From positions 1 to 43,204 of the forward strand of contig JAHFMT010000003.1 in NCBI GenBank assembly GCA_023267735.1: 43,204 nt of DNA. The letters are read 5' to 3'. Shown piece by piece: positions 8,774-42,108 of the stretch. This DNA is from Candidatus Kaiserbacteria bacterium (GTDB lineage Bacteria; Patescibacteriota; Minisyncoccia; Phycocordibacterales; Phycocordibacteraceae). Position numbers and translations under genes: made by a program. Every line of letters begins with the position of its first letter. Positions within the stretch are counted from its first letter, which is position 1. Below the pieces are notes generated by a model that searched no databases, was not told where the DNA came from, and saw only the letters and a program-made list of their open reading frames with translations.

Positions 8774-11251
8774 ATGGCTCGAGCAAAGCAAACACCACCA
8801 GAAGGGGAGGCGCAGCCTGTAAAGGAGAACGTCATTGCGCAGTCTATTAGTGCAGAGATGCGTACGTCGTATCTGGACTACGCCATGTCCGTGATTACCT
8901 CACGTGCACTGCCAGATGTGCGCGATGGTCTTAAGCCAGTGCACCGCCGCATTCTCTTTTCCATGCGTCAGAATGGGCTTACCGCTTCCGCAAAGTTTCG
9001 TAAGTCAGCAACCGTAGTGGGAGATGTGATTGGTTCGTACCACCCGCACGGCGACGTCGCAGTGTATGACGCGTTGGTAAAACTTGCACAGCCATTTGGT
9101 ACGCGCTATCCACTCATTCTTGGTCAGGGTAACTTCGGTTCCGTAGACGGTGACCCACCAGCTGCATACCGCTATACCGAAGCAAAGATGGCACGTCTTG
9201 CTGAAGAGCTGCTTGAAGATCTTGAAAAAGATACGGTGGAGTGGGCACCGAACTATGATGCGACAAAGCAGGAGCCACGTGTGCTTCCTGCGGCTGTACC
9301 AAACGTGCTTCTTAACGGTGCACTGGGTATTGCGGTGGGTATGGCAACCAACATGCCACCACACAATCTTCGTGAAGTGGTTGCTGCAACAACACATCTT
9401 ATTGATACGCCAGACGCTACTACGGAAGACCTTCTCCAGTTTGTAAAAGGTCCAGACTTTCCGCTCGGTGGTATTGCCTTTAATCAGGCAGACATTCGTC
9501 ACGCATATACCAACGGCAAGGGTGGTGTGGTAGTGCGCGGTGATGCAGAGATAGTGGACGATGGAAAGAAAGACTCAAAGATTGTCATTACTTCTATCCC
9601 ATACCGTGTTAATAAGGCAGACCTCATTACGCGCGTTGCTGAGCTGGTACAGGACAAGAAGCTTGAAGGCATTCGTGATATTCGCGATGAATCCACTGAT
9701 GACATTCGTGTGGTCATTGAGCTGAAATGCACCGCACATCCGCAAGCAGTATTGAATGCGCTCTACAAGCACACCGAGCTTGAAAGCACCTTCCACTACA
9801 ACATGCTTGCGCTGGTTGATGGGGAACCAAAGACTCTTTCGTTGAAGGGTATTCTTGAGCAGTTCATCATGCACCGTCGTCTGGTGGTGCGTCGCCGTAC
9901 CGAGTTTGATTTGAAGAAGGCAAAAGACCGTGAGCATATCTTGCTCGGTCTTTCTAAGGCACTTGATCACATTGAAGAAATCATTGCGATCATTAAGAAA
10001 TCTGCAGATGTTGCGGAAGCATCGCTCGCACTCCAGAAGAAGTTTAAGTTCTCTGAAATACAGGCTGCCGCAATTCTTGAAATGCGTCTCTCAAAGCTTG
10101 CTGGTCTTGAGCGCAAGAAGATTGAAGATGAGCTTGAGGAGGTTGGCAAACTTATTGCGTCTCTTGAGAAGTTGCTCTCCTCTGAAAAGAACATTCTTGG
10201 GGTCATCAAGAGCGAGCTCTCTGGGATTGCTGAGAAGTATGGCGATGATCGTCGTACCAGAATCGTGAAAGGTGGGGTGCAGAATATTTCGGTAGAGGAC
10301 TTGGTGCCTGATGAGGAATCAATGCTTGTCCTCACCTATGGTGGGTACGTGAAGCGCACCAACCCAGATGAGTACCGTCGTCAGAAGCGTGGGGGAGTGG
10401 GAGTCGTTGATATTGCGACAAAGGAAGAGGATGTAGTGACCCACATGCTCTCAGCATCAGCACATGCTGACCTCCTCTTCTTTACTGATTTTGGTAAGGC
10501 ATACCAGTTGAAGATGTACGAGATCCCAGAAGGAAAGCGTGCAACCAAGGGCAAGAGCATTATGAACTTCTTGGCGCTCGCAGGAGACGAACGCGTGACG
10601 AGTGTATTGTCAGTGCCTAAGGGTGCCGCGCTTGATGCGTCATCGGTAGTATTTGTAACAGGAGAAGGTGTGGTAAAGCGTGTGGCGGCAAAAGCCTTTA
10701 GTGACGTGCGTCGCTCAGGCATCATTGCCATCAACCTAAAGGGAGACGACAAGCTGGTATCAGCAAGTCTTGCACAAGATGGTGATACGGTATCGCTCGT
10801 CTCCGCGAAGGGTCAGTCCATCCGCTTTGAGGTAGAAGACGCCCGTGAGATGGGACGTACCGCAGGTGGGGTGCGTGGTATGGGCGTTAAGAAGGGAGAC
10901 CGGGTCGTATCTGCTGAGGTTATCCCTGCAGCAAGCGCTAAAGATGCCGCATTGCTCGTCGTGATGAGTAAGGGATACGGCAAACACACGCCTATTGATG
11001 AATACAAGGTACAGGGTCGTGGTGGCTCAGGTATTAAGACCGCAGAGGTAACCGCAAAGACCGGTGACATCATCGGTGCAAAAATACTTGTAGGTGACTT
11101 TAAGGAAGATGAGGTAGTCATTGTCTCCAAGAAGGGTCAGGTGATTCGCACCTCGCTCGGTGAGATTCCGTCACTCTCTCGTGCCACCCAGGGTGTACGC
11201 GTGATGAAGCTCTACGAAGGTGACGCTATCGCATCCATGGTTGCGGTCTAG
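8774..11251 (+). CDS. gyrA: DNA gyrase subunit A
   Basis: 825 aa with [26 protein letters not shown], the quinolone-resistance-region segment [14 protein letters not shown], and C-terminal beta-pinwheel repeats. Confidence 0.97.
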
Positions 11252-11275
11252 AGTGCCGATTGTTTTCCCTCATGA

Positions 11276-11306
11276 GATACCACGCGCCTAAAGGGCGCGT
11301 GGTATC
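11276..11306 (+). terminator. 13-bp perfect hairpin GATACCACGCGCC-TAAAG-GGCGCGTGGTATC after gyrA (no T-run)
   Basis: Read directly. The 3' arm contains TGgTATCGT, a candidate -10 for the next gene. Confidence 0.5.
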
Positions 11307-11314
11307 GTATAGGT

Positions 11315-11845
11315 ATGCATTTTGCTGATCCAAAAGCGAATATTCTCCAGATGGGTATGCGTGAAGGTATGAAGGTGGGCGACTTTGGTGTCGGCTCCGG
11401 TCACTATGCCATCGCGGCTGCAGGTATCGTAGGGCGTGATGGTAAGGTGTATGCCGTTGATGTGCAGGAAGATGTGTTGAAGCACGTGCGACATATGGCA
11501 GAGCGCGCACACCGCATGAATATTGATACAGTCTGGGGTGACATTGAAAAGCCGGGAGGTACCAAGTTACGCGATCAGTCCCTTGATGCGGTGATTCTCT
11601 CTAACGTACTTTTTCAGCTTGCGCAGGTTGATCGCGCACTTGCTGAGGCTAAGCGCACGTTAAAGTCAGGAGGAAAGTTACTCGTTGTTGATTGGGCGGG
11701 CTCGTATGGCGGTATGGGTCCTGCTCCTGAACATGTGGTGCAAGAACACAAAGCAGAGGAGTGGGTACTTGCCGCCGGGTTTCATAAACAGAAAGGGTTC
11801 CGGGCTGGGCCACACCATTACGGGCTTGTCTTTACCGCACCATGA
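11315..11845 (+). CDS. Class I SAM-dependent methyltransferase
   Basis: 176 aa with motif I VGDFGVGSGHYA and post-I/II regions VYAVDV and LKSGGKLLVVDW. Confidence 0.75.
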   Translation: MHFADPKANILQMGMREGMKVGDFGVGSGHYAIAAAGIVGRDGKVYAVDVQEDVLKHVRHMAERAHRMNIDTVWGDIEKPGGTKLRDQSLDAVILSNVLFQLAQVDRALAEAKRTLKSGGKLLVVDWAGSYGGMGPAPEHVVQEHKAEEWVLAAGFHKQKGFRAGPHHYGLVFTAP

Positions 11846-13134
11846 AAATCTCACTCTTCCAAATCATTGTTATAGGCGCATTCGTTGCTGCAGCAGGTAT
11901 CGGTCTCTTTGTCTTTGCAACGTATTCAGGATCATCAAACAACGCAAATACTGCACCGGTAGTTATTTGGGGAACGCTTCCTGCCTCTGCCTTTACCGCG
12001 ACGATACAGCAAGCAGGTAAGGATAGTGTGCTTGCGGTAGCGTCATATGTGCAGAAGCAGCCAGAGACGTTTGAGAGTGAGTATATCAATGCTGCTGCCA
12101 GTGGGAACGCACCAGATCTTCTGGTGGTCTCCTCAGATCAATTGCTTGGGCTGTGGCACACGCTGACGCCAATTTCATATGATGCGGTGCCAGAACGGAA
12201 TTTCCGCGATACCTTTATTGATGCCACAGACGTCCTTCTTGGTCCTGAAGGATTGTACGGCGTGCCGCTCGCCCTTGATCCGCTCGTGCTGTATTACAAC
12301 CGTCCGATGCTCGCCTCAGCAAATATTGCAGAGGCGCCACGAACCTGGGAAGAGGTTGCAGCACTGGTGCCAAAAATAGCCAGCGTCGATTCTCGTAAGG
12401 AGGTGGTGCGTGCGGCGGTAGCGCTTGGTGGCTATGGAAATATCGTAAATGCAAAAGAGATTATTGCTACGTTATTTATGCAGGCAGGCGTTCCGTTGGA
12501 GGAATCGTCACAGGGCGGTCCTAACGCTTCATTCTTTACGCGAACGGTTACCGGCGGTGATGTGCCCGCAGAAGCAGCACTACGCTATTACCTTGCCTTT
12601 GCAAACCCTGCACAAGACACCTATACGTGGAATGGAACACTGCCGTCCTCAAGAGCTTCTTTCTTAGGGGGTACGCTGGCACTCTATCTTGGTTTTGGTT
12701 CTGAGTATGCATCGTTGCGCCAAGGGAATCCAAACTTGTCCTTTGATATAGCGCGTATGCCGCAGCCAGGTACGGCAACGCTTCGTTCTACCTATGGAAA
12801 GGTATATGCGTTTGTGTTACCGAAAGCAAGCAAGAATCCAGCTGGTGCACTCACCGTTGCTCTTGCCTTTACCCCAAACGAAACTATGAAGGCGTTTGCG
12901 GATAATGTGGGAACTCTTGCACCAGTGCGCCGAGACCTTCTTTCGGCAAACACGAGTGATCCTATTGCTAGTGTGGTGTATAAAGATGCGCTGGTTGCGC
13001 GTGGATGGCTGTCCCCAAACGCCAGTGCGACGGATACCATATTTGGCGCTATGATTAGCAATGTGATAAGCGGCCGTACACGCATTATAGAGTCCCTTAC
13101 TACCGCTGAGCGAGCAATCTCCGCCGCATATTAA
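11842..13134 (+). CDS. Membrane-anchored extracellular solute-binding protein (ABC SBP family 1-like)
   Basis: 430 aa with an N-terminal TM anchor. VVIWGTLP...GNAPDLLVVSSDQL...GLYGVPLALDPLVLYYNRPML...APRTWEEV is typical of MalE-type SBPs. ATGA overlap with the methyltransferase gene. No permease or ATPase gene is adjacent. Confidence 0.7.
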   Translation: MKISLFQIIVIGAFVAAAGIGLFVFATYSGSSNNANTAPVVIWGTLPASAFTATIQQAGKDSVLAVASYVQKQPETFESEYINAAASGNAPDLLVVSSDQLLGLWHTLTPISYDAVPERNFRDTFIDATDVLLGPEGLYGVPLALDPLVLYYNRPMLASANIAEAPRTWEEVAALVPKIASVDSRKEVVRAAVALGGYGNIVNAKEIIATLFMQAGVPLEESSQGGPNASFFTRTVTGGDVPAEAALRYYLAFANPAQDTYTWNGTLPSSRASFLGGTLALYLGFGSEYASLRQGNPNLSFDIARMPQPGTATLRSTYGKVYAFVLPKASKNPAGALTVALAFTPNETMKAFADNVGTLAPVRRDLLSANTSDPIASVVYKDALVARGWLSPNASATDTIFGAMISNVISGRTRIIESLTTAERAISAAY

Positions 13135-13136
13135 TT

Positions 13137-13724
13137 ATGAAACATCTTCATCAAATTCCAGTGGTGGGCATCAGTGCCTTTCTATTCGTTTTTGGAATGC
13201 TGATATTCATGAATCATAGTACGGTTTCTGCCGCATACTCTCCTACTGGTGGCTTAAATCAAACGTGTGAAGGTAGAAGTCACGTATGCAACACAGGGCT
13301 TATTTGCAATCCAACAACGTTGAAGTGTGTAAGCGTATACGCAAGTACACCTATTACTGTAACTGGTACAGCTGGTGATACAGCTGGTGGTTCAAGTGCT
13401 GGCTCAGGTGGTACGCAAACATCGGCACCGACAAACTCTACTGGGAACGCTCTATGGAATGGAGGTGGATTAGATAACCCTCTTAACTCAAATAACCTTA
13501 CTGAGCTTTTGAGTGCTATTCTCGGATTCGTGCAAACCATCGGCGCGATATTTGTGGTGCTCATGCTTATTTGGACGGGCTTTAAGTTTGTGCATGCACA
13601 AGGCAACTCGACTGAACTTAAGAGTGCTCGCGAGAGTCTGTTGTGGACCGTAATCGGTGCGCTGATACTCCTGGGTGCAACTGCCATATCGCTTGGTATT
13701 GAGGCAACGGTAAAAAGTCTGTAG
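13137..13724 (+). CDS. Pilin-like two-TM protein paralog 1 (TrbC/VirB2-type architecture) with Cys-rich and Gly/Ser/Thr-rich N-terminal region
   Basis: 195 aa. It has a signal/TM segment, a four-Cys module (QTCEGRSHVCNTGLICNPTTLKCVS) and a G/S/T-rich linker. The C-terminal helix-loop-helix is IGAIFVVLMLIWTGFKFVHAQGNSTELKSARESLLWTVIGALILLGA. Confidence 0.55.
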   Translation: MKHLHQIPVVGISAFLFVFGMLIFMNHSTVSAAYSPTGGLNQTCEGRSHVCNTGLICNPTTLKCVSVYASTPITVTGTAGDTAGGSSAGSGGTQTSAPTNSTGNALWNGGGLDNPLNSNNLTELLSAILGFVQTIGAIFVVLMLIWTGFKFVHAQGNSTELKSARESLLWTVIGALILLGATAISLGIEATVKSL

Positions 13725-13726
13725 CC

Positions 13727-14041
13727 ATGACTCGTCTCATTCCACTACTTGTACTTGCGCTCTACATTGTCTTTCCGCATCCCGCTGAAGCAGCAGTTTC
13801 ATTCAAGGTTTTTGTGAGCATGCTTATTGGTGCGGCAAACAGCGCGGTCGTTCCGTTGCTGTTTGCCTTTGCCGTCTTGTTCTTTCTTTTCGGTGTATTT
13901 AAGTATTTCATCTTGGGCGGTGAATCAGAAAAAGATCGGGGAGAAGGGAAGAAGTTTATCTTGTGGGGTCTGCTTGCGTTGGCGTTGATGGTTTCAGCAT
14001 TTGGTCTAGTGCGCATCTTTATGAATACCTTTGGGTTATAA
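13727..14041 (+). CDS. Pilin-like two-TM protein paralog 2
   Basis: 104 aa. It has a signal peptide ending AEA, then VVPLLFAFAVLFFLFGVFKYFILGGESEKDRGEGKKFILWGLLALALMVSAFGLVRIFMNTFGL. This module is shared with paralogs 3-5. Confidence 0.6.
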   Translation: MTRLIPLLVLALYIVFPHPAEAAVSFKVFVSMLIGAANSAVVPLLFAFAVLFFLFGVFKYFILGGESEKDRGEGKKFILWGLLALALMVSAFGLVRIFMNTFGL

Positions 14042-14048
14042 TCTGCAT

Positions 14049-14546
14049 ATGAAGAAATACACCTTTGCGTTTGCGGTTGCTACTGGGTTGTTTGCTATAG
14101 CTCCTCTGGTTGCTCCGACAGTATCGCTTGCGGCGGCAGGCCCGGCGACTGCAGCTGAAACAACTTCCTCAGACTCGCTCTTGCCGTATTCTCCAAGCTA
14201 TCCAACGTCAAACACCAATACTTCTAATGCAGGGAAGGTGACTACAAATGCTCCTGCGGCCTCTGCAGATACTCTTTTTGGGTTAAAGGACACGATACTG
14301 ACGCTCATCAATGATGTGTTCGTACCGTTACTCTTTGCGATAGCGTTTCTGGTATTTATTTTTGGTGTGTACAAACACTTCATTCAAAATGGCGCGAGTG
14401 GTGATGAGAAGAATGAAGGCAAGAAGCTCATTCTGTATGGTCTTATTGGTTTTGCCGTGATGGTATCGGTGTGGGGGTTGGTTAATATTGTGACAGGAAC
14501 ATTCGGACTTGATAGTGGGGGAAGACCAGATTATCCGACACTCTAA
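14049..14546 (+). CDS. Pilin-like two-TM protein paralog 3 with Ser/Thr/Asn/Pro-rich linker
   Basis: 165 aa from ATG 14049, with a TATAAT -10 box ending 6 nt upstream. It has a signal peptide, a low-complexity linker, then FVPLLFAIAFLVFIFGVYKHFIQNGASGDEKNEGKKLILYGLIGFAVMVSVWGLVNIVTGTFGL. Confidence 0.6.
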   Translation: MKKYTFAFAVATGLFAIAPLVAPTVSLAAAGPATAAETTSSDSLLPYSPSYPTSNTNTSNAGKVTTNAPAASADTLFGLKDTILTLINDVFVPLLFAIAFLVFIFGVYKHFIQNGASGDEKNEGKKLILYGLIGFAVMVSVWGLVNIVTGTFGLDSGGRPDYPTL

Positions 14547-14642
14547 CAATCCCCACACCCGGCCTTGCGCACGGGTGGATGCGGTATAATAAGAGTACGT
14601 CTTAGCAAGTGATTTTCTAAGCGTTATCAATTTAACTACGGT

Positions 14643-15011
14643 ATGAAACAGAAACTTGCATATATTGGTGTGTCGTTCGCATTCCCATTTCTCGCACTTG
14701 CGGCGTCAATTAATGATATTGGTGATCTTGGCGATACCATTCTTGGGATAATTAACGGTACATTGGTTCCTCTGGTGTTTGCAATCGCATTCATCGTGTT
14801 TCTCTGGGGCGCATTCCAGACCTTTATTCAGGGAGCAAACGATGATGAGGTGAAGACTAAGGGTAGAAACCTCATGATGTGGAGCATTGTTGGTTTTGCC
14901 GTGATGGTTTCCATTTGGGGTCTCGTAAACATCCTCACCGGTACGTTTAGCGTTGGAAGTACACTGAACACCCCAACGAGTGGTGTAGGTGCACCTTTCC
15001 AAGTTAAGTAG
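14643..15011 (+). CDS. Pilin-like two-TM protein paralog 4
   Basis: 122 aa. It has a signal peptide, then LVPLVFAIAFIVFLWGAFQTFIQGANDDEVKTKGRNLMMWSIVGFAVMVSIWGLVNILTGTFSV. Confidence 0.6.
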   Translation: MKQKLAYIGVSFAFPFLALAASINDIGDLGDTILGIINGTLVPLVFAIAFIVFLWGAFQTFIQGANDDEVKTKGRNLMMWSIVGFAVMVSIWGLVNILTGTFSVGSTLNTPTSGVGAPFQVK

Positions 15012-15032
15012 TCTCTAGGTATTCGGTTTTTA

Positions 15033-15067
15033 CATACAGCCGCTGTCAAAAAGACAGCGGCTGTATG
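15033..15067. repeat. Perfect 15-bp-stem hairpin CATACAGCCGCTGTC-AAAAA-GACAGCGGCTGTATG between paralogs 4 and 5
   Basis: Read directly. There is no T-run. The 3' arm runs into TGcTATACT, a candidate -10 for paralog 5. Confidence 0.6.
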
Positions 15068-15081
15068 CTATACTCGCGTAT

Positions 15082-15348
15082 ATGTCTGAGCTTATTTGTA
15101 AGGTGGTTACGGAGATTATCAATCCGATCATCATACTTATCTCTGCAGGTGCATTTGTGTACTTCCTCTTTGGATTGGTGAAATTCTTGCAGACCTCCGC
15201 AGCAGGAGGTGACACGAAAGATGGCAAGAATCACATGATATGGGGCATTGTAGGCCTGGTCATTATCTTTGGTGCCTACGGAATTATAAACTTCGTGATT
15301 GGCACGTTTGGTATTACGCCAATAGGTCCTCTCAACTGCGCCGCGTAA
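15082..15348 (+). CDS. Pilin-like two-TM protein paralog 5 (no signal peptide)
   Basis: 88 aa. IINPIIILISAGAFVYFLFGLVKFLQTSAAGGDTKDGKNHMIWGIVGLVIIFGAYGIINFVIGTFGI carries the same helix, G/K-containing loop, W-G and TFG module. Confidence 0.55.
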   Translation: MSELICKVVTEIINPIIILISAGAFVYFLFGLVKFLQTSAAGGDTKDGKNHMIWGIVGLVIIFGAYGIINFVIGTFGITPIGPLNCAA

Positions 15349-15361
15349 TAACCCTTGTGTG

Positions 15362-15433
15362 AGGTCCGGGCGGGGATCGAACCCGCGCATCGCGGTTTTG
15401 CAGACCGCTGTGTTACCGCTTCACCACCGGACC
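15362..15433 (-). tRNA. tRNA-Cys (GCA)
   Basis: The reverse complement is GGTCCGGTGGTGAAGCGGTAACACAGCGGTCTGCAAAACCGCGATGCGCGGGTTCGATCCCCGCCCGGACCT. It has a 7-bp acceptor stem, anticodon loop CTGCAAA and T-loop GGTTCGATCC. No CCA is encoded. Confidence 0.9.
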
Positions 15434-15571
15434 AGTACTCCGATAGTACCATGATGGGTATATTTCAGCAGGAATAAGGCAATCCACAGAGGGTGTGGTA
15501 TGGGCTCTTTATTGCCCCTGCAGGGTGTTTAATTAAGGGGTGCGCCATTATACGTATATTCCGTATATCAA

Positions 15572-15802
15572 ATGAAATTCCTTCATATCATCGCCTTCAT
15601 CCTTGTGATTGTTGGCGGCATTAACTGGGGCTTGACCGCGTTCGGGTATAACCTCGTGGCACTCCTCGTTGGGGCATGGCCAACCGTAGAGATGATCGTG
15701 TATGTCCTTGTCGGACTTTCGGCGATCTATCTCCTCGTGACGCATAAGCGCTGCTGCAGTGAGTGCTCAGTGAAGTCTTCTTCGGCATCAATGTCGATGT
15801 AA
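15572..15802 (+). CDS. DUF378-family small membrane protein with Cys-rich tail
   Basis: 76 aa. IAFILVIVGGINWGLTAFGYNLVA...IVYVLVGLSAIYLL matches the DUF378 pattern. The tail is HKRCCSECS. Confidence 0.7.
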   Translation: MKFLHIIAFILVIVGGINWGLTAFGYNLVALLVGAWPTVEMIVYVLVGLSAIYLLVTHKRCCSECSVKSSSASMSM

Positions 15803-15823
15803 GTCAGGTGAGTGTGTGTACAC

Positions 15824-15853
15824 AAACGCCCCGGTATATCCGGGGCGTTTGAT
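15824..15853 (+). terminator. Intrinsic terminator AAACGCCCCGG-TATAT-CCGGGGCGTTT
   Basis: 11-bp perfect stem read directly, 22 nt after the DUF378 gene stop. Confidence 0.75.
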
Positions 15854-15872
15854 ATGGTACAAAGGAGACATT

Positions 15873-15958
15873 GCCGGGATGATGAAATCGGTAGCCATAG
15901 GGGACTTAAAATCCCCAGACTTTAATAGGTCGTGTGGGTTCGAGTCCCACTCCCGGCA
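15873..15958 (+). tRNA. tRNA-Leu (TAA), class II with long variable arm
   Basis: The fold is GCCGGGA..GGGGA-CTTAAAA-TCCCC..variable arm..GTGGGTTCGAGTCCCAC-TCCCGGC-A. No complete CCA is encoded. Confidence 0.9.
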
Positions 15959-15965
15959 CCGCAAA

Positions 15966-16004
15966 AACAATACAGCCAATGCAAGATGCATTGGCTGTAT
16001 TGTT
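15966..16004. terminator. Perfect 18-bp-stem hairpin (AACAATACAGCCAATGCA-AGA-TGCATTGGCTGTATTGTT) between convergent tRNA-Leu and tRNA-Lys
   Basis: Read directly. It is flanked by an A-run on the left and a T-rich stretch on the right, so it is likely a bidirectional terminator. Confidence 0.65.
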
Positions 16005-16021
16005 GTACTGAGAAACTTAGT

Positions 16022-16094
16022 GCGCCCACCAGGGCTCGAACCTGGGACCCACTGCTTAAGAGGCAGTTGCTCTACCAGCTGAGCTATAGGCGCG
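16022..16094 (-). tRNA. tRNA-Lys (CTT)
   Basis: The reverse complement is GCGCCTATAGCTCAGCTGGTAGAGCAACTGCCTCTTAAGCAGTGGGTCCCAGGTTCGAGCCCTGGTGGGCGCA. The anticodon loop is CTCTTAA. No CCA is encoded. Confidence 0.9.
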
Positions 16095-16142
16095 TATGTG
16101 TTTTATACCAGATAATTCACAAATTTGGTATAGTGCCCTGAC

Positions 16143-16224
16143 GGGCGAGTGGCGGAATTGGTATACGCGCATGGCTTAGGACCATGTCTCGCAAGAGGTG
16201 AGGGTTCAAGTCCCTCCTCGCCCA
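16143..16224 (+). tRNA. tRNA-Leu (TAG), class II
   Basis: The fold is GGGCGAG..CATGG-CTTAGGA-CCATG..variable arm..GAGGGTTCAAGTCCCTC-CTCGCCC-A. No CCA is encoded. Confidence 0.9.
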
Positions 16225-16231
16225 CCTATAC

Positions 16232-16263
16232 AAAAAGCTGGGTACACAGGTACCTAGCTTTTT
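16232..16263. terminator. Hairpin AAAAAGCTGGGTAC-ACAG-GTACCTAGCTTTTT between tRNA-Leu(+) and thrS(-)
   Basis: Read directly. It has one G-U pair and A/T runs on both sides, so it is likely bidirectional. Confidence 0.7.
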
Positions 16264-16267
16264 GCGT

Positions 16268-18019
16268 TTACGCGCGGTCGCGTATCTCCTTGGAAATACG
16301 TACAACCGCTTCAGTAGTACTTACCGGATCAAGCTTCCCGTGATCACGACTTTCAATAGTGACGGTGCTGCTTTCAATTTCTTTGTCACCGACGATAAGG
16401 ACGTATGGAATCTTTTCAGTCTTTGCTGCACGAATCTTCTTGCCGAGAGAATCATTTGCGTCATCTATATCAGCGCGTATGTCAGCGTCCTTAAGTGCAC
16501 TCAGAACCGTCTTTGCATACTCAATATGTTTGTCAGAGACAGGAATGACCATTGCCTGTACAGGAGACAGCCAAGCAGGGAAGGCGCCTGCGTAGTGTTC
16601 AATCATTACCGAAAGGAAGCGTTCAAGAGAGCCGGAGATGGCGCGGTGGATCATGACTGGACGTACCTTTGCACCAGTCTGATCGGTGTACTCAAGCTTG
16701 AAGCGCTCTGGCTGTACAAAGTCCAACTGGATGGTGGCAAGCTGCCATTCACGTCCAATGGCGTCCTTGAACATGAAGTCCAGCTTAGGGCCATAGAAGG
16801 CTGCCTCGCCCTCGCCACGAATCATCGTGAGTCCTTCTGCGGACGCTATGGCCTCAAGGTGTGCTTCTGCAGCGTCCCATATTGCCGTGTCGCCAAGATA
16901 CTTGTCAGGGGTCTTCGGGTCGCGCACCGAAAGGCGTGCCCAGTATGAACCTTCACCAAGCATGTTGAGGGTGCTGTAGAAGTCCTTGATGATGGAGATG
17001 ATGCGGCCAGCTTCATCAGCAATTTGGTCTGGGCGGCAAAATACGTGTCCATCGTCTTGGGTGATGGAGAGTACGCGAGAGAGGCCCAGAAGCTCACCAC
17101 TGTTTTCATCACGGTATACGCGGGTGACGTCAAAATAGCGGATAGGGAGGTCACGATAGCTTTTGGGGCGGCTCGCATAAATCTGTGTGTGATGCGGGCA
17201 GTTCATCGGCTTCAGCATGTAGTGCTTGTCACGGCCGTGTACCTGGAACCCATCATCCTTGTACTTGTCCCAGTGTCCCGAGACTTTGTAGAGGTCTGGT
17301 TTTGCAAGGTGCGGTATATCAACCTTTTCGTATCCTTGCGCCTTGTTTAATTCCCACAGGAAGGAGATAAGTTCATCGCGTACGATTGTTCCTTTGGGAG
17401 TGAAGAGAGGGAGTCCTGCACCCACAAGGTCAGAGATGACAAAGAGATCAAGCTCCTGTCCAAGTTTGCGGTGGTCACGCTTGAGTGCCTCTTCTTTTTG
17501 GGTGACGTATGCATCAAGAGCTTCTTTGGTATCAAAGGCAAGACCGTAGATGCGGGTGAGCATTGGATTCTTTTCGTCTCCACGCCAGTATGCACCAGCA
17601 ATGCGATCCAGTACGAATGAATCAGGTGCAATCTCAGTCGCAGGGTTTTCACTGTGTCCACCACGGCAGAGATCGGTGAACGTGCCTGCGGTATAGAGGG
17701 TGAGTGTGTCACCACGCTGGGTGATTTCTTGTATGAGCTCCTTCTTGTACTGGTTAGCAGCAAACTGCTCAGTAGCCTGTGCTTCTGACACAGGTGCGCC
17801 GGTCATGCTGTTCCAGGTAGGTAGGAGAGCACGCATCTCCTCAGTGAGGGAAGCAAGGTCTTCGCTGGTAGGGGTTGCACCACCAGAGAAATCAAAGTCG
17901 TAATAGAAGCCCGTATCTACCGCAGGACCAATAGTTGGCTTTGCGTGTGGGTATTTCTTTTGAATAACTGCCGCAAGGAGATGGGCAAGAGTATGGCGCT
18001 TTGCTTCAAGGGGATTCAT
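16268..18019 (-). CDS. thrS: Threonyl-tRNA synthetase (starts at the editing/SAD region, no N-terminal TGS domain)
   Basis: 583 aa from ATG 18019; the ORF-track start at 18037 is a TTG. It has HTLAHLLAAVI, class II core motifs (FRDE.. YRDENSGELLGLSRV, HRAISGSLERF) and a C-terminal anticodon-binding domain. Confidence 0.93.
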   Translation of the reverse strand: MNPLEAKRHTLAHLLAAVIQKKYPHAKPTIGPAVDTGFYYDFDFSGGATPTSEDLASLTEEMRALLPTWNSMTGAPVSEAQATEQFAANQYKKELIQEITQRGDTLTLYTAGTFTDLCRGGHSENPATEIAPDSFVLDRIAGAYWRGDEKNPMLTRIYGLAFDTKEALDAYVTQKEEALKRDHRKLGQELDLFVISDLVGAGLPLFTPKGTIVRDELISFLWELNKAQGYEKVDIPHLAKPDLYKVSGHWDKYKDDGFQVHGRDKHYMLKPMNCPHHTQIYASRPKSYRDLPIRYFDVTRVYRDENSGELLGLSRVLSITQDDGHVFCRPDQIADEAGRIISIIKDFYSTLNMLGEGSYWARLSVRDPKTPDKYLGDTAIWDAAEAHLEAIASAEGLTMIRGEGEAAFYGPKLDFMFKDAIGREWQLATIQLDFVQPERFKLEYTDQTGAKVRPVMIHRAISGSLERFLSVMIEHYAGAFPAWLSPVQAMVIPVSDKHIEYAKTVLSALKDADIRADIDDANDSLGKKIRAAKTEKIPYVLIVGDKEIESSTVTIESRDHGKLDPVSTTEAVVRISKEIRDRA

Positions 18020-40859: not shown

Positions 40860-41084
40860 TCACGTTCTGCCGGTCTGTTTTCTGGAATCCCACGATAGCC
40901 ACGACTTCAGTCCTCCCAGGAATATTCCCAGGCCCAGTACCGTTATGAAGGTATAGCCCACGATTAAGGTTCTGTGAAATGCAACGGGCGTGTTAACTGG
41001 ATTTAACTCCAGGATTTCCAAAACCGCATGAGGACCAAAGATCACGAGCATGAGTCCTGCGACCGCGATAATGAGACGATACAT
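40860..41084 (-). CDS. Hypothetical two-TM small membrane protein (SD-led)
   Basis: 74 aa. AAGGAG lies 6 nt upstream of ATG 41084. There are two hydrophobic helices. Confidence 0.6.
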   Translation of the reverse strand: MYRLIIAVAGLMLVIFGPHAVLEILELNPVNTPVAFHRTLIVGYTFITVLGLGIFLGGLKSWLSWDSRKQTGRT

Positions 41085-41187
41085 GTCGACTCCTTTCGTT
41101 CAAAAAGAACTGAAAATTTAAGCACTCGTACCATACAATATATTTTTTATTTTGTAAATGTAGAGATAATATGATCCCCAGTAAATA

Positions 41188-41204
41188 GGGAAGTACGACT
41201 TCCC
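41188..41204. repeat. Hairpin GGGAAGT-ACG-ACTTCCC (left copy of a repeated hairpin)
   Basis: Read directly. It matches 41815-41831 at 15 of 17 positions, with both differences in the loop. Confidence 0.7.
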
Positions 41205-41814
41205 TGAAGCCAACTTATTTTTACCTGATTAATTACCCTCGTCCTTTATCTGATCCTTAATTAATTTATGTATAGATGATTACTGCACAAGAGTTAGATA
41301 AATCAATATTTCTCGCTCAAAAAGCACCTGTGGATAACGTTTCTCGGTCATCCGAGATAGGGAGTAGGGGAGAAGTGCTTTCCTTACCCTATAGCCCCTC
41401 TATACTCTCTCATAACCCCTACATACAGCGTCTGTGTGGGCATATAAGTATATATAGTAACGATTATGTATCTCGTTAATACGGTACATACGCGCAGGAG
41501 TGGTGAAGTACCCGACACAGATCCCCTCAAAGAATAGGTATCGGTAAATAACCTTGCATCCTATATTCTCTTCGCAAAAGGCATATTGTGCGAAGATTAT
41601 GTATCAAGCATTGTAAACATTGGATTAATTAAAATCGCTCTGCTCCCTATCATGGGTATACTCAATTTTTCCTAAACTTCTTTAGTGTCTGTGAAAATGT
41701 TTTTATACCTGCGTTTCTCTACCACCCCAAGGGTCTCTTGGTACTAATAATTTTTCCTTTGAAGAGACCTTTGTAGAACCTAAAACAACCTTTGTGAAAA
41801 CTGGGGAGGTTTCG

Positions 41815-41838
41815 GGGAAGTCGGACTTCCCTTTTTAT
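41815..41838 (+). terminator. Hairpin GGGAAGT-CGG-ACTTCCC plus TTTTTATT (right copy; plus-strand terminator)
   Basis: Read directly. Confidence 0.65.
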
Positions 41839-41847
41839 TAAATAAGA

Positions 41848-41869
41848 AAGCCACCCCGAAGGATGGCTT
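41848..41869 (-). terminator. Hairpin AAGCCACCC-CGAA-GGATGGCTT; on the minus strand it is followed by TCTTATTT. Terminator of the 41896-42108 gene
   Basis: Read directly. It lies 27 nt after the minus-strand stop. Confidence 0.65.
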
Positions 41870-41895
41870 CTATCTTGCTCTGAGATCCTTGAGAC

Positions 41896-42108
41896 CTAGA
41901 TGGTGTCCAACTCCCTTTGGAGTCCGAGTTCATCTTCGGACTCCAAGAGATTCAGAAAATGAGCTTTTTCGAAATTTCTGCCAGTGACCAGGCACCAAAG
42001 GTACAAGGCAAAAAGCACTGCCAACAAGAGGAAAAGTAGTCCAAGGCACTGGAAAAGAAACCAGAGGCCTCTGACCCAGTGTCCGATTCCCAGGAAAAAC
42101 TGTCGCAT
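41896..42108 (-). CDS. Hypothetical small membrane protein with acidic tail (SD-led)
   Basis: 70 aa. GGAGG lies 4 nt upstream of ATG 42108. It has a hydrophobic core, WFLFQCLGLLFLLLAVLFALYLWCLV, and its own terminator. Confidence 0.6.
   Translation of the reverse strand: MRQFFLGIGHWVRGLWFLFQCLGLLFLLLAVLFALYLWCLVTGRNFEKAHFLNLLESEDELGLQRELDTI

What the first reader, a model, noticed from the sequence alone, without database searches (positions are those of the whole stretch)
13137..15348. Tandem array of five paralogous two-TM pilin-like proteins with swapped N-terminal modules, no secretion machinery in sight
Five consecutive same-strand genes share a C-terminal helix, charged Gly/Lys loop, helix module that can be aligned by eye:
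- P2: VVPLLFAFAVLFFLFGVFKYFILGGESEKDRGEGKKFILWGLLALALMVSAFGLVRIFMNTFGL
- P3: FVPLLFAIAFLVFIFGVYKHFIQNGASGDEKNEGKKLILYGLIGFAVMVSVWGLVNIVTGTFGL
- P4: LVPLVFAIAFIVFLWGAFQTFIQGANDDEVKTKGRNLMMWSIVGFAVMVSIWGLVNILTGTFSV
- P5: IINPIIILISAGAFVYFLFGLVKFLQTSAAGGDTKDGKNHMIWGIVGLVIIFGAYGIINFVIGTFGI
- P1 is more divergent: IGAIFVVLMLIWTGFKFVHAQGNSTELKSARESLLWTVIGALILLGA

This is the architecture of TrbC/VirB2-type conjugative pilins. I believe a related T4SS-pilin family has been described for CPR genomes, but I cannot verify that here.

What precedes the module differs in each copy. P1 has a four-Cys knot-like segment plus a G/S/T-rich linker. P3 has an S/T/N/P-rich linker. P2 and P4 have only a signal peptide. 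P5 has no signal peptide at all.

No VirB4, VirB6 or VirD4, pilus ATPase or prepilin peptidase gene is in the window. The array is flanked by an orphan SBP on one side and four tRNA genes on the other. It looks like a modular surface-filament or adhesin set, which would suit an episymbiotic lifestyle, or a novel small-membrane-protein system.
Basis: partly seen in the sequence, partly recalled or inferred. Interest (0 to 1): 0.75.

Follow-up and report, generated by a model that had tools for sequence, protein, structure and literature searches.

The report
Known CPR VirB2-like pilin gene array
Five neighbouring small membrane-protein genes are a real tandem set of "T4SS pilin" (VirB2-like) genes, a kind already described in ultrasmall Patescibacteria (CPR), so this is another example of a known though functionally unsolved system.

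Summary
Five same-strand genes at 13137-15348 are paralogues. Each has two hydrophobic helices joined by a short charged loop, and the N-termini differ.

All five score above the Pfam gathering cut-off for PF18895 (T4SS_pilin), the CPR branch of the VirB2/TrbC pilins. Tandem arrays of 2-11 such genes are already published: 441 arrays in 383 Patescibacteria assemblies, and a six-gene array that is essential in Southlakia epibionticum ML1. This is therefore a new member of a known kind.

The window holds no T4SS machinery, only housekeeping genes.

New details:
- In all 16 related loci, the methyltransferase, the membrane-anchored orphan MalE-like binding protein and the 5-7 pilin genes sit in the same order. 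No T4SS gene was seen among the genes checked within about 10 kb.
- Array positions are orthologous between genomes. P1 is a distinct "NPL" type, and P5 is a conserved last member without a signal peptide.
- A four-cysteine mini-domain and low-complexity linkers sit on different paralogues, or are absent, in close relatives.
- Natural fusions of 2-8 pilin modules in one protein exist.

The function (a pilus or conduit built by a T4SS encoded elsewhere) is inferred, not shown.

The parts
11315..11845 (+). Class I SAM-dependent methyltransferase (176 aa). It is the first gene of the conserved MTase-SBP-pilin block and overlaps the SBP start by 4 nt.
   Evidence: Pfam Methyltransf_31/11/25 and Ubie_methyltran. 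It sits directly upstream of the SBP in 14 related loci that reach that far; L001 has no match and L005 has no upstream sequence beyond MTase.
11842..13134 (+). Membrane-anchored solute-binding protein, distantly MalE-like. The window holds no ABC permease or ATPase. Its stop codon lies 2 nt before the P1 start.
   Evidence: Pfam SBP_bac_8, E 3e-16. It matches MalE chains in the PDB at E 1e-5 to 1e-7. It is followed directly by the pilin array in every related locus with enough DNA.
13137..13724 (+). P1, the 'type B' pilin (195 aa). It has a signal peptide, a 4-Cys mini-domain, a G/T/S-rich disordered linker, an NPL motif and a two-helix hairpin.
   Evidence: PF18895 35.8 bits and PF04956 26.3 bits. 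Its best hit in all 7 distant loci is the same array type. The module has 20 invariant columns across 19 orthologues.
13266..13328 (+). Four-cysteine mini-domain of P1 (residues 44-64, CEGRSHVCNTGLICNPTTLKC).
   Evidence: AF2 places a small beta-hairpin at 55-57/64-66; the 10-residue block means covering residues 51-70 are 76 and 72. The same C-x(2-8)-C-x(4-6)-C-x(5-20)-C pattern occurs on other pilins of related arrays. It occurs 0 times in 10,105 residues of the window's housekeeping proteins.
13344..13475 (+). Low-complexity G/T/S/A/N linker of P1 (residues 70-113), predicted disordered.
   Evidence: Composition is. pLDDT is below 50 for residues 70-72 and 74-113. The region is absent in the closest orthologues, P0002-P0006 and L010_p1, which are 107-111 aa long.
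13494..13718 (+). Two-helix hairpin core of P1 (residues 120-194).
   Evidence: AF2 helices span 120-153 and 158-194; the 10-residue block means covering residues 121-190 run 80-88. Hydrophobic segments span 124-154 and 166-190.
13727..14041 (+). P2 pilin (104 aa): a signal peptide plus the hairpin only.
   Evidence: PF18895 31.9 bits. It is 62.5% identical over its full length to L010_p2, which holds the same array position in the closest relative.
14049..14546 (+). P3 pilin (165 aa from the ATG at 14049): a signal peptide, an A/T/S/P/N-rich linker (residues 29-74, nt 14133-14270), the hairpin and a short tail.
   Evidence: PF18895 35.6 bits. Its orthologue L010_p3 (55% identity in the module) carries a 4-Cys module in place of the linker.
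14643..15011 (+). P4 pilin (122 aa): a signal peptide, the hairpin and a 22-aa tail. A 96-nt spacer precedes it.
   Evidence: PF18895 36.8 bits. There are 501 homologues at E<=1e-3; all 120 listed carry PF18895. AF2 helices span 26-63 and 68-99; the 10-residue block means covering residues 31-100 run 72-91.
15033..15067 (.). Perfect 15-bp inverted repeat with a 5-nt loop, between P4 and P5. It may be a terminator or a regulatory hairpin.
   Evidence: the repeat finder, I1. It has no T-tract, and the terminator scan did not list it.
15082..15348 (+). P5, the 'type F' pilin without a signal peptide (88 aa). It is the last gene of the array.
   Evidence: PF18895 30.0 bits. Its best hit in every related array that reaches the last gene is the last, likewise leaderless, gene, which shares the INP and GTFG motifs.

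Best explanation
The five genes are an array of VirB2-like 'T4SS pilin' (Pfam PF18895) paralogues in a Patescibacteria (CPR) chromosome. The closest named relatives are Candidatus Kaiserbacteria (Parcubacteria).

Shown here:
- Family membership of all five genes.
- The layout of a signal peptide followed by a two-helix hairpin (P5 has no leader).
- Conservation of the whole array, in the same order, behind a methyltransferase gene and a membrane-anchored solute-binding-protein gene in all 16 related loci.
- Orthology of array positions between genomes.
- Variable extra-membrane appendages (a four-Cys mini-domain and low-complexity linkers) that differ between close relatives.

Inferred:
- P1-P4 are inserted through Sec, and a type I signal peptidase removes the leader. 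P5 inserts without a leader.
- Each protein sits as an N-out/C-out hairpin with its K/R-bearing loop in the cytoplasm.
- The paralogues co-assemble as non-redundant subunits: core, minor and appendage-bearing.
- A monoderm-type T4SS (VirB4, VirB6, PrgI, TrsD) encoded elsewhere in the genome builds them into a pilus-like tube or an envelope-spanning conduit.
- The variable appendages face outward and contact the host cell.
For: Family and structure:
- PF18895 is above its cut-off for all five, and PF04956 and NF045849 give sub-threshold hits.
- Hydropathy and loop charge fit the hairpin.
- AF2 predicts hairpins whose 10-residue block means run 72-91.
- The top PDB sequence hit of the family profile is the pKM101 pilin TraM (8cw4), but at only E 0.036.
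- The family is very large: 25,213 50%-identity representatives at E<=1e-3.

Literature:
- The homologous six-gene PF18895 array SEML1_0014-0019 lies next to the T4SS genes of S. epibionticum, and every member is essential in Tn-seq (PMC10633639).
- 441 arrays of 2-11 pilin genes are reported, with mean identity 25% and maximum 54%. The pilin gene is near virB4 in 1,135 of 1,948 assemblies, so many are not (PMC12102498).
- VirB4 is recorded in a Ca. Kaiserbacteria assembly (Table S1).

Non-redundant roles:
- Array positions are orthologous between genomes.
- All six ML1 genes are individually essential.

Co-assembly:
- Natural single-chain fusions of 2-8 modules exist.

Outward-facing variable parts:
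- The appendages always lie between the leader and helix 1, or after helix 2, and they change between close relatives.
Against: - No T4SS gene lies in the 43-kb window. None was seen within about 10 kb of the array in the related loci; this rests on the public gene calls with their Pfam marks for L010-L017 and on a partial Pfam check of ten downstream ORFs for L001, L003, L004 and L008. L002, L005 and L006 downstream ORFs were not scanned.
- Whether this genome has VirB4 at all could not be tested.
- No VirB2-type filament has been seen on any Patescibacterium. The filaments solved so far are type IV pili and Pam pili (bioRxiv 10.64898/2026.03.03.709456).
- Fold searches cannot tell the hairpin from generic helical hairpins.
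- PF04956 itself stays below its cut-off.
- The tight, conserved linkage to an SBP and a methyltransferase is unexplained by the T4SS model.
Confidence: 0.68

Rival explanations
1. A T4SS-independent surface or uptake module. The membrane-anchored orphan MalE-like binding protein and the pilin-like hairpins, possibly with the methyltransferase, form one functional unit. The hairpin bundle would serve as the membrane partner or conduit for the binding protein.
For: - MTase-SBP-array order and tight spacing (4-nt overlap; gaps of 10 nt or less) recur in 14 of the 16 related loci, at SBP identities from 64% down to 33%. L015 and L016 have gaps of about 350-400 nt to the first called pilin gene, where the first gene looks truncated.
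- No ABC permease or ATPase and no T4SS gene lies nearby.
- Multi-module fusions suggest a membrane bundle.
Against: - The whole region from FtsA or HisRS to GyrA is syntenic too, so the linkage may simply be inherited gene order.
- In S. epibionticum the homologous array sits beside the T4SS genes. No SBP_bac_8 protein is recorded there, and the gyrA neighbourhood differs.
- No precedent is known for an SBP working with VirB2-like proteins.
Confidence: 0.14
2. A cassette of interchangeable major pilins for antigenic or host-range variation, as proposed for the VirB2 paralogues of Bartonella and Anaplasma. One pilin would be used at a time.
For: - Sequence divergence within the array is high.
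- The appendages are variable.
- PMC12102498 raises this idea.
- P2-P4 resemble each other more than they resemble their distant counterparts.
Against: - Array positions are orthologous across genomes and keep type-specific motifs: NPL in P1, and INP without a leader in P5.
- No DNA repeats or inversion sites that would drive switching were found.
- All six ML1 paralogues are individually essential.
Confidence: 0.1
3. Sec-secreted soluble effector or toxin subunits exported by a T4SS, following the pertussis-toxin analogy proposed for the TM7x array.
For: McLean et al. 2020 (PMC7427843) described the homologous TM7x array as small secreted proteins and compared it with ptx/ptl. P1-P4 have signal peptides.
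Against: - Every mature protein is dominated by two hydrophobic helices of 25-30 residues.
- All five match a pilin profile.
- P5 has no signal peptide.
- Later work re-interpreted the TM7x array as VirB2-like pilins (PMC12102498).
Confidence: 0.03

Closest known systems
Patescibacterial VirB2-like pilin arrays (Pfam PF18895), such as SEML1_0014-0019 of Ca. Southlakia epibionticum ML1 and the TM7x 'secreted array'
   Same: - Same Pfam family.
- A tandem array of 5-6 small genes on one strand.
- Similar sizes: 103-185 aa in ML1 against 88-195 aa here.
- Low identity within the array: 20-52% here, against a published mean of 25% and maximum of 54%.
- Some members carry long N-terminal extensions before the pilin domain.
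   Different: - In ML1 and TM7x the array lies beside virB4, virB6 and prgI, near dnaA.
- Here, and in 16 related loci, it lies behind gyrA, a methyltransferase and an SBP. No T4SS gene was seen among the genes checked within 10 kb (28 kb downstream in the window).
- The window's lineage appears to be Kaiserbacteria-like (Paceibacteria), not Saccharimonadia.
VirB2/TrbC/TraA conjugative pilins of diderm T4SSs (Pfam PF04956; for example pKM101 TraM, PDB 8cw4)
   Same: - A cleavable leader.
- A two-helix hydrophobic hairpin with a short charged loop, in a small protein.
- Weak profile similarity: P1 26.3 bits and P5 16.9 bits to PF04956, and the family profile against 8cw4 at E 0.036.
   Different: - Scores are below the PF04956 gathering cut-off.
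- The host is a monoderm.
- There are five divergent paralogues, not one major pilin.
- One member has no leader.
- Some members carry long N-terminal appendages with Cys modules.
- The genes are not inside a virB operon.
Mbov_0395 family pilin-like conjugal transfer protein of Mycoplasma ICEs (NCBIfam NF045849)
   Same: An 80-aa two-helix module in a wall-less or monoderm MPF-FATA-type system. All five proteins hit it, at E 1e-9 to 5e-4.
   Different: All scores (19.7-37.9 bits) are below the cut-off of 40 bits. That family is a single gene within an integrative conjugative element, not a chromosomal array.
Multicopy virB2 paralogues of Bartonella and Anaplasma T4SSs
   Same: Tandem, divergent VirB2 copies in a host-dependent bacterium (as cited in PMC12102498).
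   Different: Those arrays are adjacent to the T4SS, occur in diderms, and are thought to serve antigenic variation. Here the positions are conserved orthologues, which argues for distinct roles.

Membership tests
Pfam PF18895 T4SS_pilin | Profile HMM score at or above the curated gathering cut-off (26.6 bits) | tested here: met
   P1 35.8, P2 31.9, P3 35.6, P4 36.8 and P5 30.0 bits. The precomputed Pfam marks on the public gene calls agree.
Patescibacterial VirB2-like pilin array (as defined in PMC12102498) | Two or more VirB2-like (PF18895 or PF04956) genes in tandem, or separated by at most one non-pilin gene | tested here: met
   Five consecutive + strand genes with spacers of 2, 7, 96 and 70 nt.
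Patescibacterial VirB2-like pilin array (as defined in PMC12102498) | Low identity between array members (published mean 25%, maximum 54%) | tested here: met
   20-52% pairwise identity.
Patescibacterial VirB2-like pilin array (as defined in PMC12102498) | Encoded in a Patescibacteria genome that also encodes VirB4 | not testable with these tools
   Homologue names point to Ca. Kaiserbacteria, Parcubacteria and Patescibacteria. The window is a whole 43,205-nt MAG contig with no virB4, and the other contigs of the MAG could not be fetched. Table S1 of PMC12102498 records VirB4 in one Kaiserbacteria assembly and none in another.
VirB2/TrbC conjugative pilin (Pfam PF04956) | Profile HMM score at or above the gathering cut-off (27.9 bits) | tested here: not met
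   P1 26.3 bits and P5 16.9 bits. P2-P4 give no hit at E<=1.
VirB2/TrbC conjugative pilin (Pfam PF04956) | Cleavable N-terminal leader followed by two hydrophobic helices joined by a short charged loop | tested here: met
   Met for P1-P4 by hydropathy, AxA-like sites and AF2. P5 has the hairpin but no leader. No dedicated signal-peptide or TM predictor was available.
VirB2/TrbC conjugative pilin (Pfam PF04956) | Gene located within or next to the T4SS operon (virB3, virB4) | tested here: not met
   No T4SS gene lies in the window, which extends 13 kb upstream and 28 kb downstream. None was seen in the related loci among the genes checked.
VirB2/TrbC conjugative pilin (Pfam PF04956) | Fold match to solved T4SS pilins, and polymerisation into a pilus | tested here: inconclusive
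   Foldseek of both AF2 models against the PDB gave no hit with E<0.4 and only generic helical hairpins. The sequence profile against the PDB put TraM (8cw4) first, but at E 0.036. Polymerisation cannot be tested here.
Mbov_0395 pilin-like conjugal transfer protein (NCBIfam NF045849) | Score at or above the curated cut-off (40 bits) | tested here: not met
   Best score 37.9 bits (P4); the others score 19.7-30.5 bits.
Type IV pilin (T4P, class III signal peptide) | N-terminal prepilin motif G|F/M-x-x-x-E, with a prepilin peptidase and a PilB-type ATPase nearby | tested here: not met
   None of the five N-termini has such a motif (sequences). No type IV pilin Pfam family is hit. The window has no peptidase A24 or T2SS-E ATPase.

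The most novel reading that the evidence does not exclude
In this Kaiserbacteria-like lineage the VirB2-like array may have been uncoupled from the T4SS genes. It would then work as one conserved operon with a membrane-anchored orphan MalE-like binding protein and a methyltransferase. This would be a new kind of host-facing capture or uptake device. The hairpin proteins would form a heteromeric membrane or filament scaffold, decorated with swappable disulfide-rich mini-domains. The binding protein would supply ligand recognition in place of a classical ABC permease.
Probability: 0.12. Interest if true: 0.75.

Novelty: new member of a known kind. Interest (0 to 1): 0.33.

Why it matters
The T4SS and its pilin array are among the few systems shown to be essential for the epibiotic life of a cultivated Patescibacterium. 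What they do is unknown. Candidates include effector delivery and import of DNA, nutrients or lipids from the host.

This locus adds no new family, but it gives four concrete handles:
- The array can live far from the T4SS genes, in a conserved operon with a binding protein and a methyltransferase.
- Its members are position-specific orthologues, which points to a heteromeric machine and not to redundant copies.
- The exposed ends carry shuffled four-Cys modules and linkers, which are candidates for host-specificity determinants.
- Natural poly-pilin fusions offer a Rosetta-stone argument for co-assembly.

Each of these is testable by co-occurrence analysis, multimer modelling and work in cultivated relatives.

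Tried and rejected
- **Fold searches.** Foldseek of the AF2 models of P1 and P4 against the PDB gave only generic helical hairpins (best E 0.43) and no T4SS pilin in the top 50. This is uninformative for so small a fold.
- **Sequence profile against the PDB.** A profile of 41 array proteins put TraM of pKM101 first, but only at E 0.036 and over the leader plus helix 1. That is marginal.
- **Promoter and terminator scan, 11000-16300.** Counts were at or below the shuffle expectation, and nothing was usable.
- **DNA repeats in the array.** No long repeats between paralogues and no switching elements were found, only the 15-bp hairpin before P5.
- **Exact-sequence look-up of P1.** It failed because the public gene call starts at M25. 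This was resolved through P0001.
- **Finding VirB4 for this genome or its relatives.** This was not possible.
- **Fusion origin of the P1 Cys segment.** I considered whether it is a remnant of the two-Cys 'type A' first gene of distant arrays, fused onto type B. The similarity is too weak to claim. The segment matches better the four-Cys module seen on other array members.
- **Taxon.** I first took the lineage for Saccharibacteria, from the titles of L001-L008. I dropped this after the P4 homologues at 53-64% identity turned out to be named Kaiserbacteria or Parcubacteria.
- **Transporter fragment.** I rejected this reading. Only sub-threshold hits appear: COX2_TM, DctQ and UPF0114, at E 0.009-0.16.


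Full report
**Observation**

The five + strand ORFs are real:

| Gene | Coordinates | Length |
|---|---|---|
| P1 | 13137-13724 | 195 aa |
| P2 | 13727-14041 | 104 aa |
| P3 | 14049-14546 | 165 aa |
| P4 | 14643-15011 | 122 aa |
| P5 | 15082-15348 | 88 aa |

For P3, the ORF finder's first possible start is a TTG at 14031. The ATG at 14049 gives a normal leader, MKKYTF....

They are paralogues well beyond chance:
- P3-P4: 52% identity, E 5e-31.
- P2-P3: 48%.
- P2-P4: 38%.
- P5 against P2-P4: 30-35%.
- P1 against P4 or P5: about 20%, E 1e-5.

Hydropathy shows a leader-like N-terminal segment in P1-P4. All five have two hydrophobic segments of 25-30 residues, separated by a polar loop of 15-19 residues carrying 3-5 Lys/Arg.

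P5 has no leader and no upstream in-frame start. Its reading frame opens only 63 nt upstream, inside a perfect 15-bp hairpin at 15033-15067.

AlphaFold2 models agree with this layout.
- P1: a leader helix at 7-27, a small beta-hairpin in the Cys region at 55-66, a disordered stretch at 70-113, and helices at 120-153 and 158-194. The 10-residue block means over the two helices run 80-88.
- P4: a leader helix at 6-20, helices at 26-63 and 68-99 (block means 72-91), and a disordered tail.

**Identity**

- PF04956 (TrbC/VirB2) is hit below its cut-off by P1 (26.3 against 27.9) and by P5.
- The NCBIfam model for the Mycoplasma ICE 'pilin-like conjugal transfer protein' is hit by all five, also below its cut-off.
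- A profile of the five finds 25,213 50%-identity representatives at E<=1e-3 in a 1.84-billion-protein library, so the family is very large.
- No profile assigns the module to a transporter or any other characterised family.

**The window**

Every other ORF that got a Pfam assignment is housekeeping:
- Upstream of the array: FtsZ, FtsA, HisRS, LepB, S1, an MBL-fold protein, GyrA, a SAM methyltransferase and an SBP_bac_8 protein.
- Downstream: four tRNAs, a DUF378 protein, ThrRS, DnaE, NusB-Nudix, RNase III, SMC, RNase R, TrmD, HolB, ScpB, a D-Ala-D-Ala carboxypeptidase, MraY, FtsW, MurG, GltX and an M23 peptidase.

No T4SS, T2SS or T4P machinery is present. A few ORFs of 150-330 aa had no Pfam hit.

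The window is a whole 43,205-nt MAG contig.

**Literature**

This kind of locus is already described.
- McLean et al. 2020 (PMC7427843) noted an array of 4-6 small signal-peptide proteins beside the T4SS genes of TM7x.
- Wang et al. 2023 (PMC10633639) showed that the six PF18895 genes SEML1_0014-0019 lie beside the T4SS cluster of S. epibionticum ML1. All six are essential in Tn-seq.
- Quinonero-Coronel et al. 2025 (PMC12102498) used PF18895 and PF04956 to find VirB2-like genes in 1,948 VirB4-positive assemblies. The pilin gene was near virB4 in only 1,135 of them. They counted 441 arrays of 2-11 pilin genes, with mean identity 25% and maximum 54%.
- A 2025 review calls these the first monoderm T4SSs with potential pili (PMC12857230).

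The finding is therefore a new member of a known kind.

**Conservation**

Using the SBP as an anchor, eight genome loci were fetched. Eight more came from the contexts of P1 and P4 homologues.
- All 16 show the SBP with pilin genes after it wherever the DNA reaches, and 14 show the same upstream order ...S1 - MBL - GyrA - methyltransferase - SBP.
- Every locus with enough downstream DNA then carries 5-7 tandem PF18895 genes that start within about 10 nt of the SBP stop (L015 and L016 have a gap of 350-400 nt where the first gene call looks truncated).
- For L010-L017, none of the public gene calls within 10 kb carries a T4SS Pfam mark. For L001, L003, L004 and L008, ten downstream ORFs were scanned: five hit SPFH/Band_7, pyruvate kinase or a 2-hydroxyacid dehydrogenase, and three had no Pfam hit. 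The downstream ORFs of L002, L005 and L006 were not scanned.
- In ML1 the gyrA neighbourhood is different and no SBP_bac_8 protein is recorded.

Detachment of the array from the T4SS genes, and its linkage to the methyltransferase and SBP, are thus features of this lineage.

Taxon labels conflict.
- P4 homologues at 53-64% identity are named Ca. Kaiserbacteria, Parcubacteria or Patescibacteria.
- The more distant SBP-anchored loci are titled 'uncultured Candidatus Saccharibacteria', Parcubacteria or Paceibacterota.
- I take the window to be Kaiserbacteria-like (GTDB class Paceibacteria).
- Table S1 of PMC12102498 lists VirB4 as present in one Kaiserbacteria assembly and absent in another.

**Positional orthology**

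Array members match across genomes by position, not within genomes.
- In five distant six-gene or five-gene arrays, each gene's best hit in every other array is the gene at the same position. Ortholog scores are about twice the best paralog scores.
- Window P1 is the 'type B' member in all seven comparisons. Its module has 20 invariant columns, including an NPL motif before helix 1.
- Window P5 is the last member wherever the last gene is present, and that member always lacks a leader (INP...GTFG motifs).
- P4 matches the penultimate type in four of six arrays.
- P2 and P3 resemble each other and P4 more than they resemble their distant counterparts. They do have clear positional orthologues in the closest relative L010, whose SBP is 64% identical: P2 at 62.5% over its full length, and P3 at 55%.

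This argues for non-redundant roles and against a simple variation cassette.

**Appendages**

The segment between the leader and helix 1 is hypervariable among type B orthologues:
- It is absent in the closest ones (107-111 aa).
- One orthologue has a thrice-repeated GPTSGTPQAG unit.
- Others carry one to three cysteine modules.

The P1 module (C-x6-C-x5-C-x6-C) recurs on other proteins:
- P0011, as ...DCPSGYRCDPISLTCVSS.
- The third gene of L010, in place of the Ser/Thr-rich linker of P3.
- The first genes of L011 and L014.
- Twice in the C-terminal extension of the third gene of L013.

The same pattern is absent from 10,105 residues of the window's housekeeping proteins, where Cys frequency is 0.34%. 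These appendages always sit on the ends that a VirB2-like topology places outside the cell.

**Fusions**

Many of the best library hits are single proteins with 2-8 pilin modules in series, for example P0147 (820 aa, eight hairpins). This is Rosetta-stone evidence that the modules work side by side.

**Mechanism**

- Shown: family membership, hairpin architecture, array conservation, positional orthology and variable outward-facing appendages.
- Inferred from established knowledge of VirB2, TraA and TrbC: Sec insertion and leader cleavage, an N-out/C-out hairpin with a cytoplasmic basic loop, and extraction and polymerisation by a VirB4/VirB6 platform.
- Taken from the ML1 work: essentiality, and association with a monoderm-type T4SS that lacks a relaxase.
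- Not shown anywhere: that these proteins form a filament. The Patescibacterial filaments solved so far are type IV pili and the Ig-like Pam pili. An 8.6-nm tube between Mycosynbacter and its host has unknown composition.

**Verdict**

The interpretation as CPR VirB2-like pilins is supported. Novelty is low: this is a new member of a known kind.

Four details may be worth following up:
- The conserved methyltransferase-SBP-pilin operon lying away from T4SS genes.
- The position-specific paralogue types.
- The mobile four-Cys module.
- The poly-pilin fusions.

Noticed in passing
window 11315-13134, and the same genes in L001-L017: A SAM methyltransferase and a membrane-anchored MalE-like SBP with no transporter partner precede the pilin array in the related loci that reach them. 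The gene junctions are overlapping or nearly abutting in most. The published T4SS papers I read do not mention this linkage.
   Followed up: partly
window 41000-41900: A stretch of about 0.8 kb has low GC (30-43%, against about 51% for the window) and no ORF of 70 aa or more. It is bounded by 41-nt imperfect inverted repeats (41182-41222 and 41797-41837). Each repeat contains the palindrome GGGAAGTnnGACTTCCC. Rfam gave no hit.
   Followed up: partly
window 15033-15081: A perfect 15-bp inverted repeat with a 5-nt loop sits between P4 and P5. A TATACT hexamer lies about 6 nt before the P5 ATG. Together they hint at separate, possibly leaderless, transcription of P5.
   Followed up: no
proteins P0140, P0142, P0147 and other hits: Single polypeptides carry 2-8 tandem T4SS_pilin modules, up to 820 aa and eight hairpins. 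They are common among the best-scoring relatives. Their taxa and genomic contexts are unknown.
   Followed up: partly
window 13137-13208 (P1 start): The public gene call for P1 (171 aa, P0001) starts at Met25 and omits the signal peptide. Orthologues, and the position 2 nt after the SBP stop, support the 195-aa form.
   Followed up: yes
window 15572-15802: A DUF378 small membrane protein (76 aa, Pfam E 1.5e-16) is wedged between tRNA-Cys and tRNA-Leu, just downstream of the array.
   Followed up: no
L001-L008 compared with the hits: Record titles of related MAGs disagree on taxonomy: 'uncultured Candidatus Saccharibacteria' against Parcubacteria, Paceibacterota and Kaiserbacteria. Yet they share a long syntenic block running FtsA-HisRS-LepB-S1-MBL-GyrA-MTase-SBP-pilins. 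Some labels are probably wrong.
   Followed up: partly
L002, L004, L006, L008, L001 (first gene after the SBP): Distant arrays have an extra first member ('type A') with a two-Cys motif, TYEC...YGxC. The window and its closer relatives lack it. L003 also lacks it and has a gap of about 480 nt in its place.
   Followed up: no
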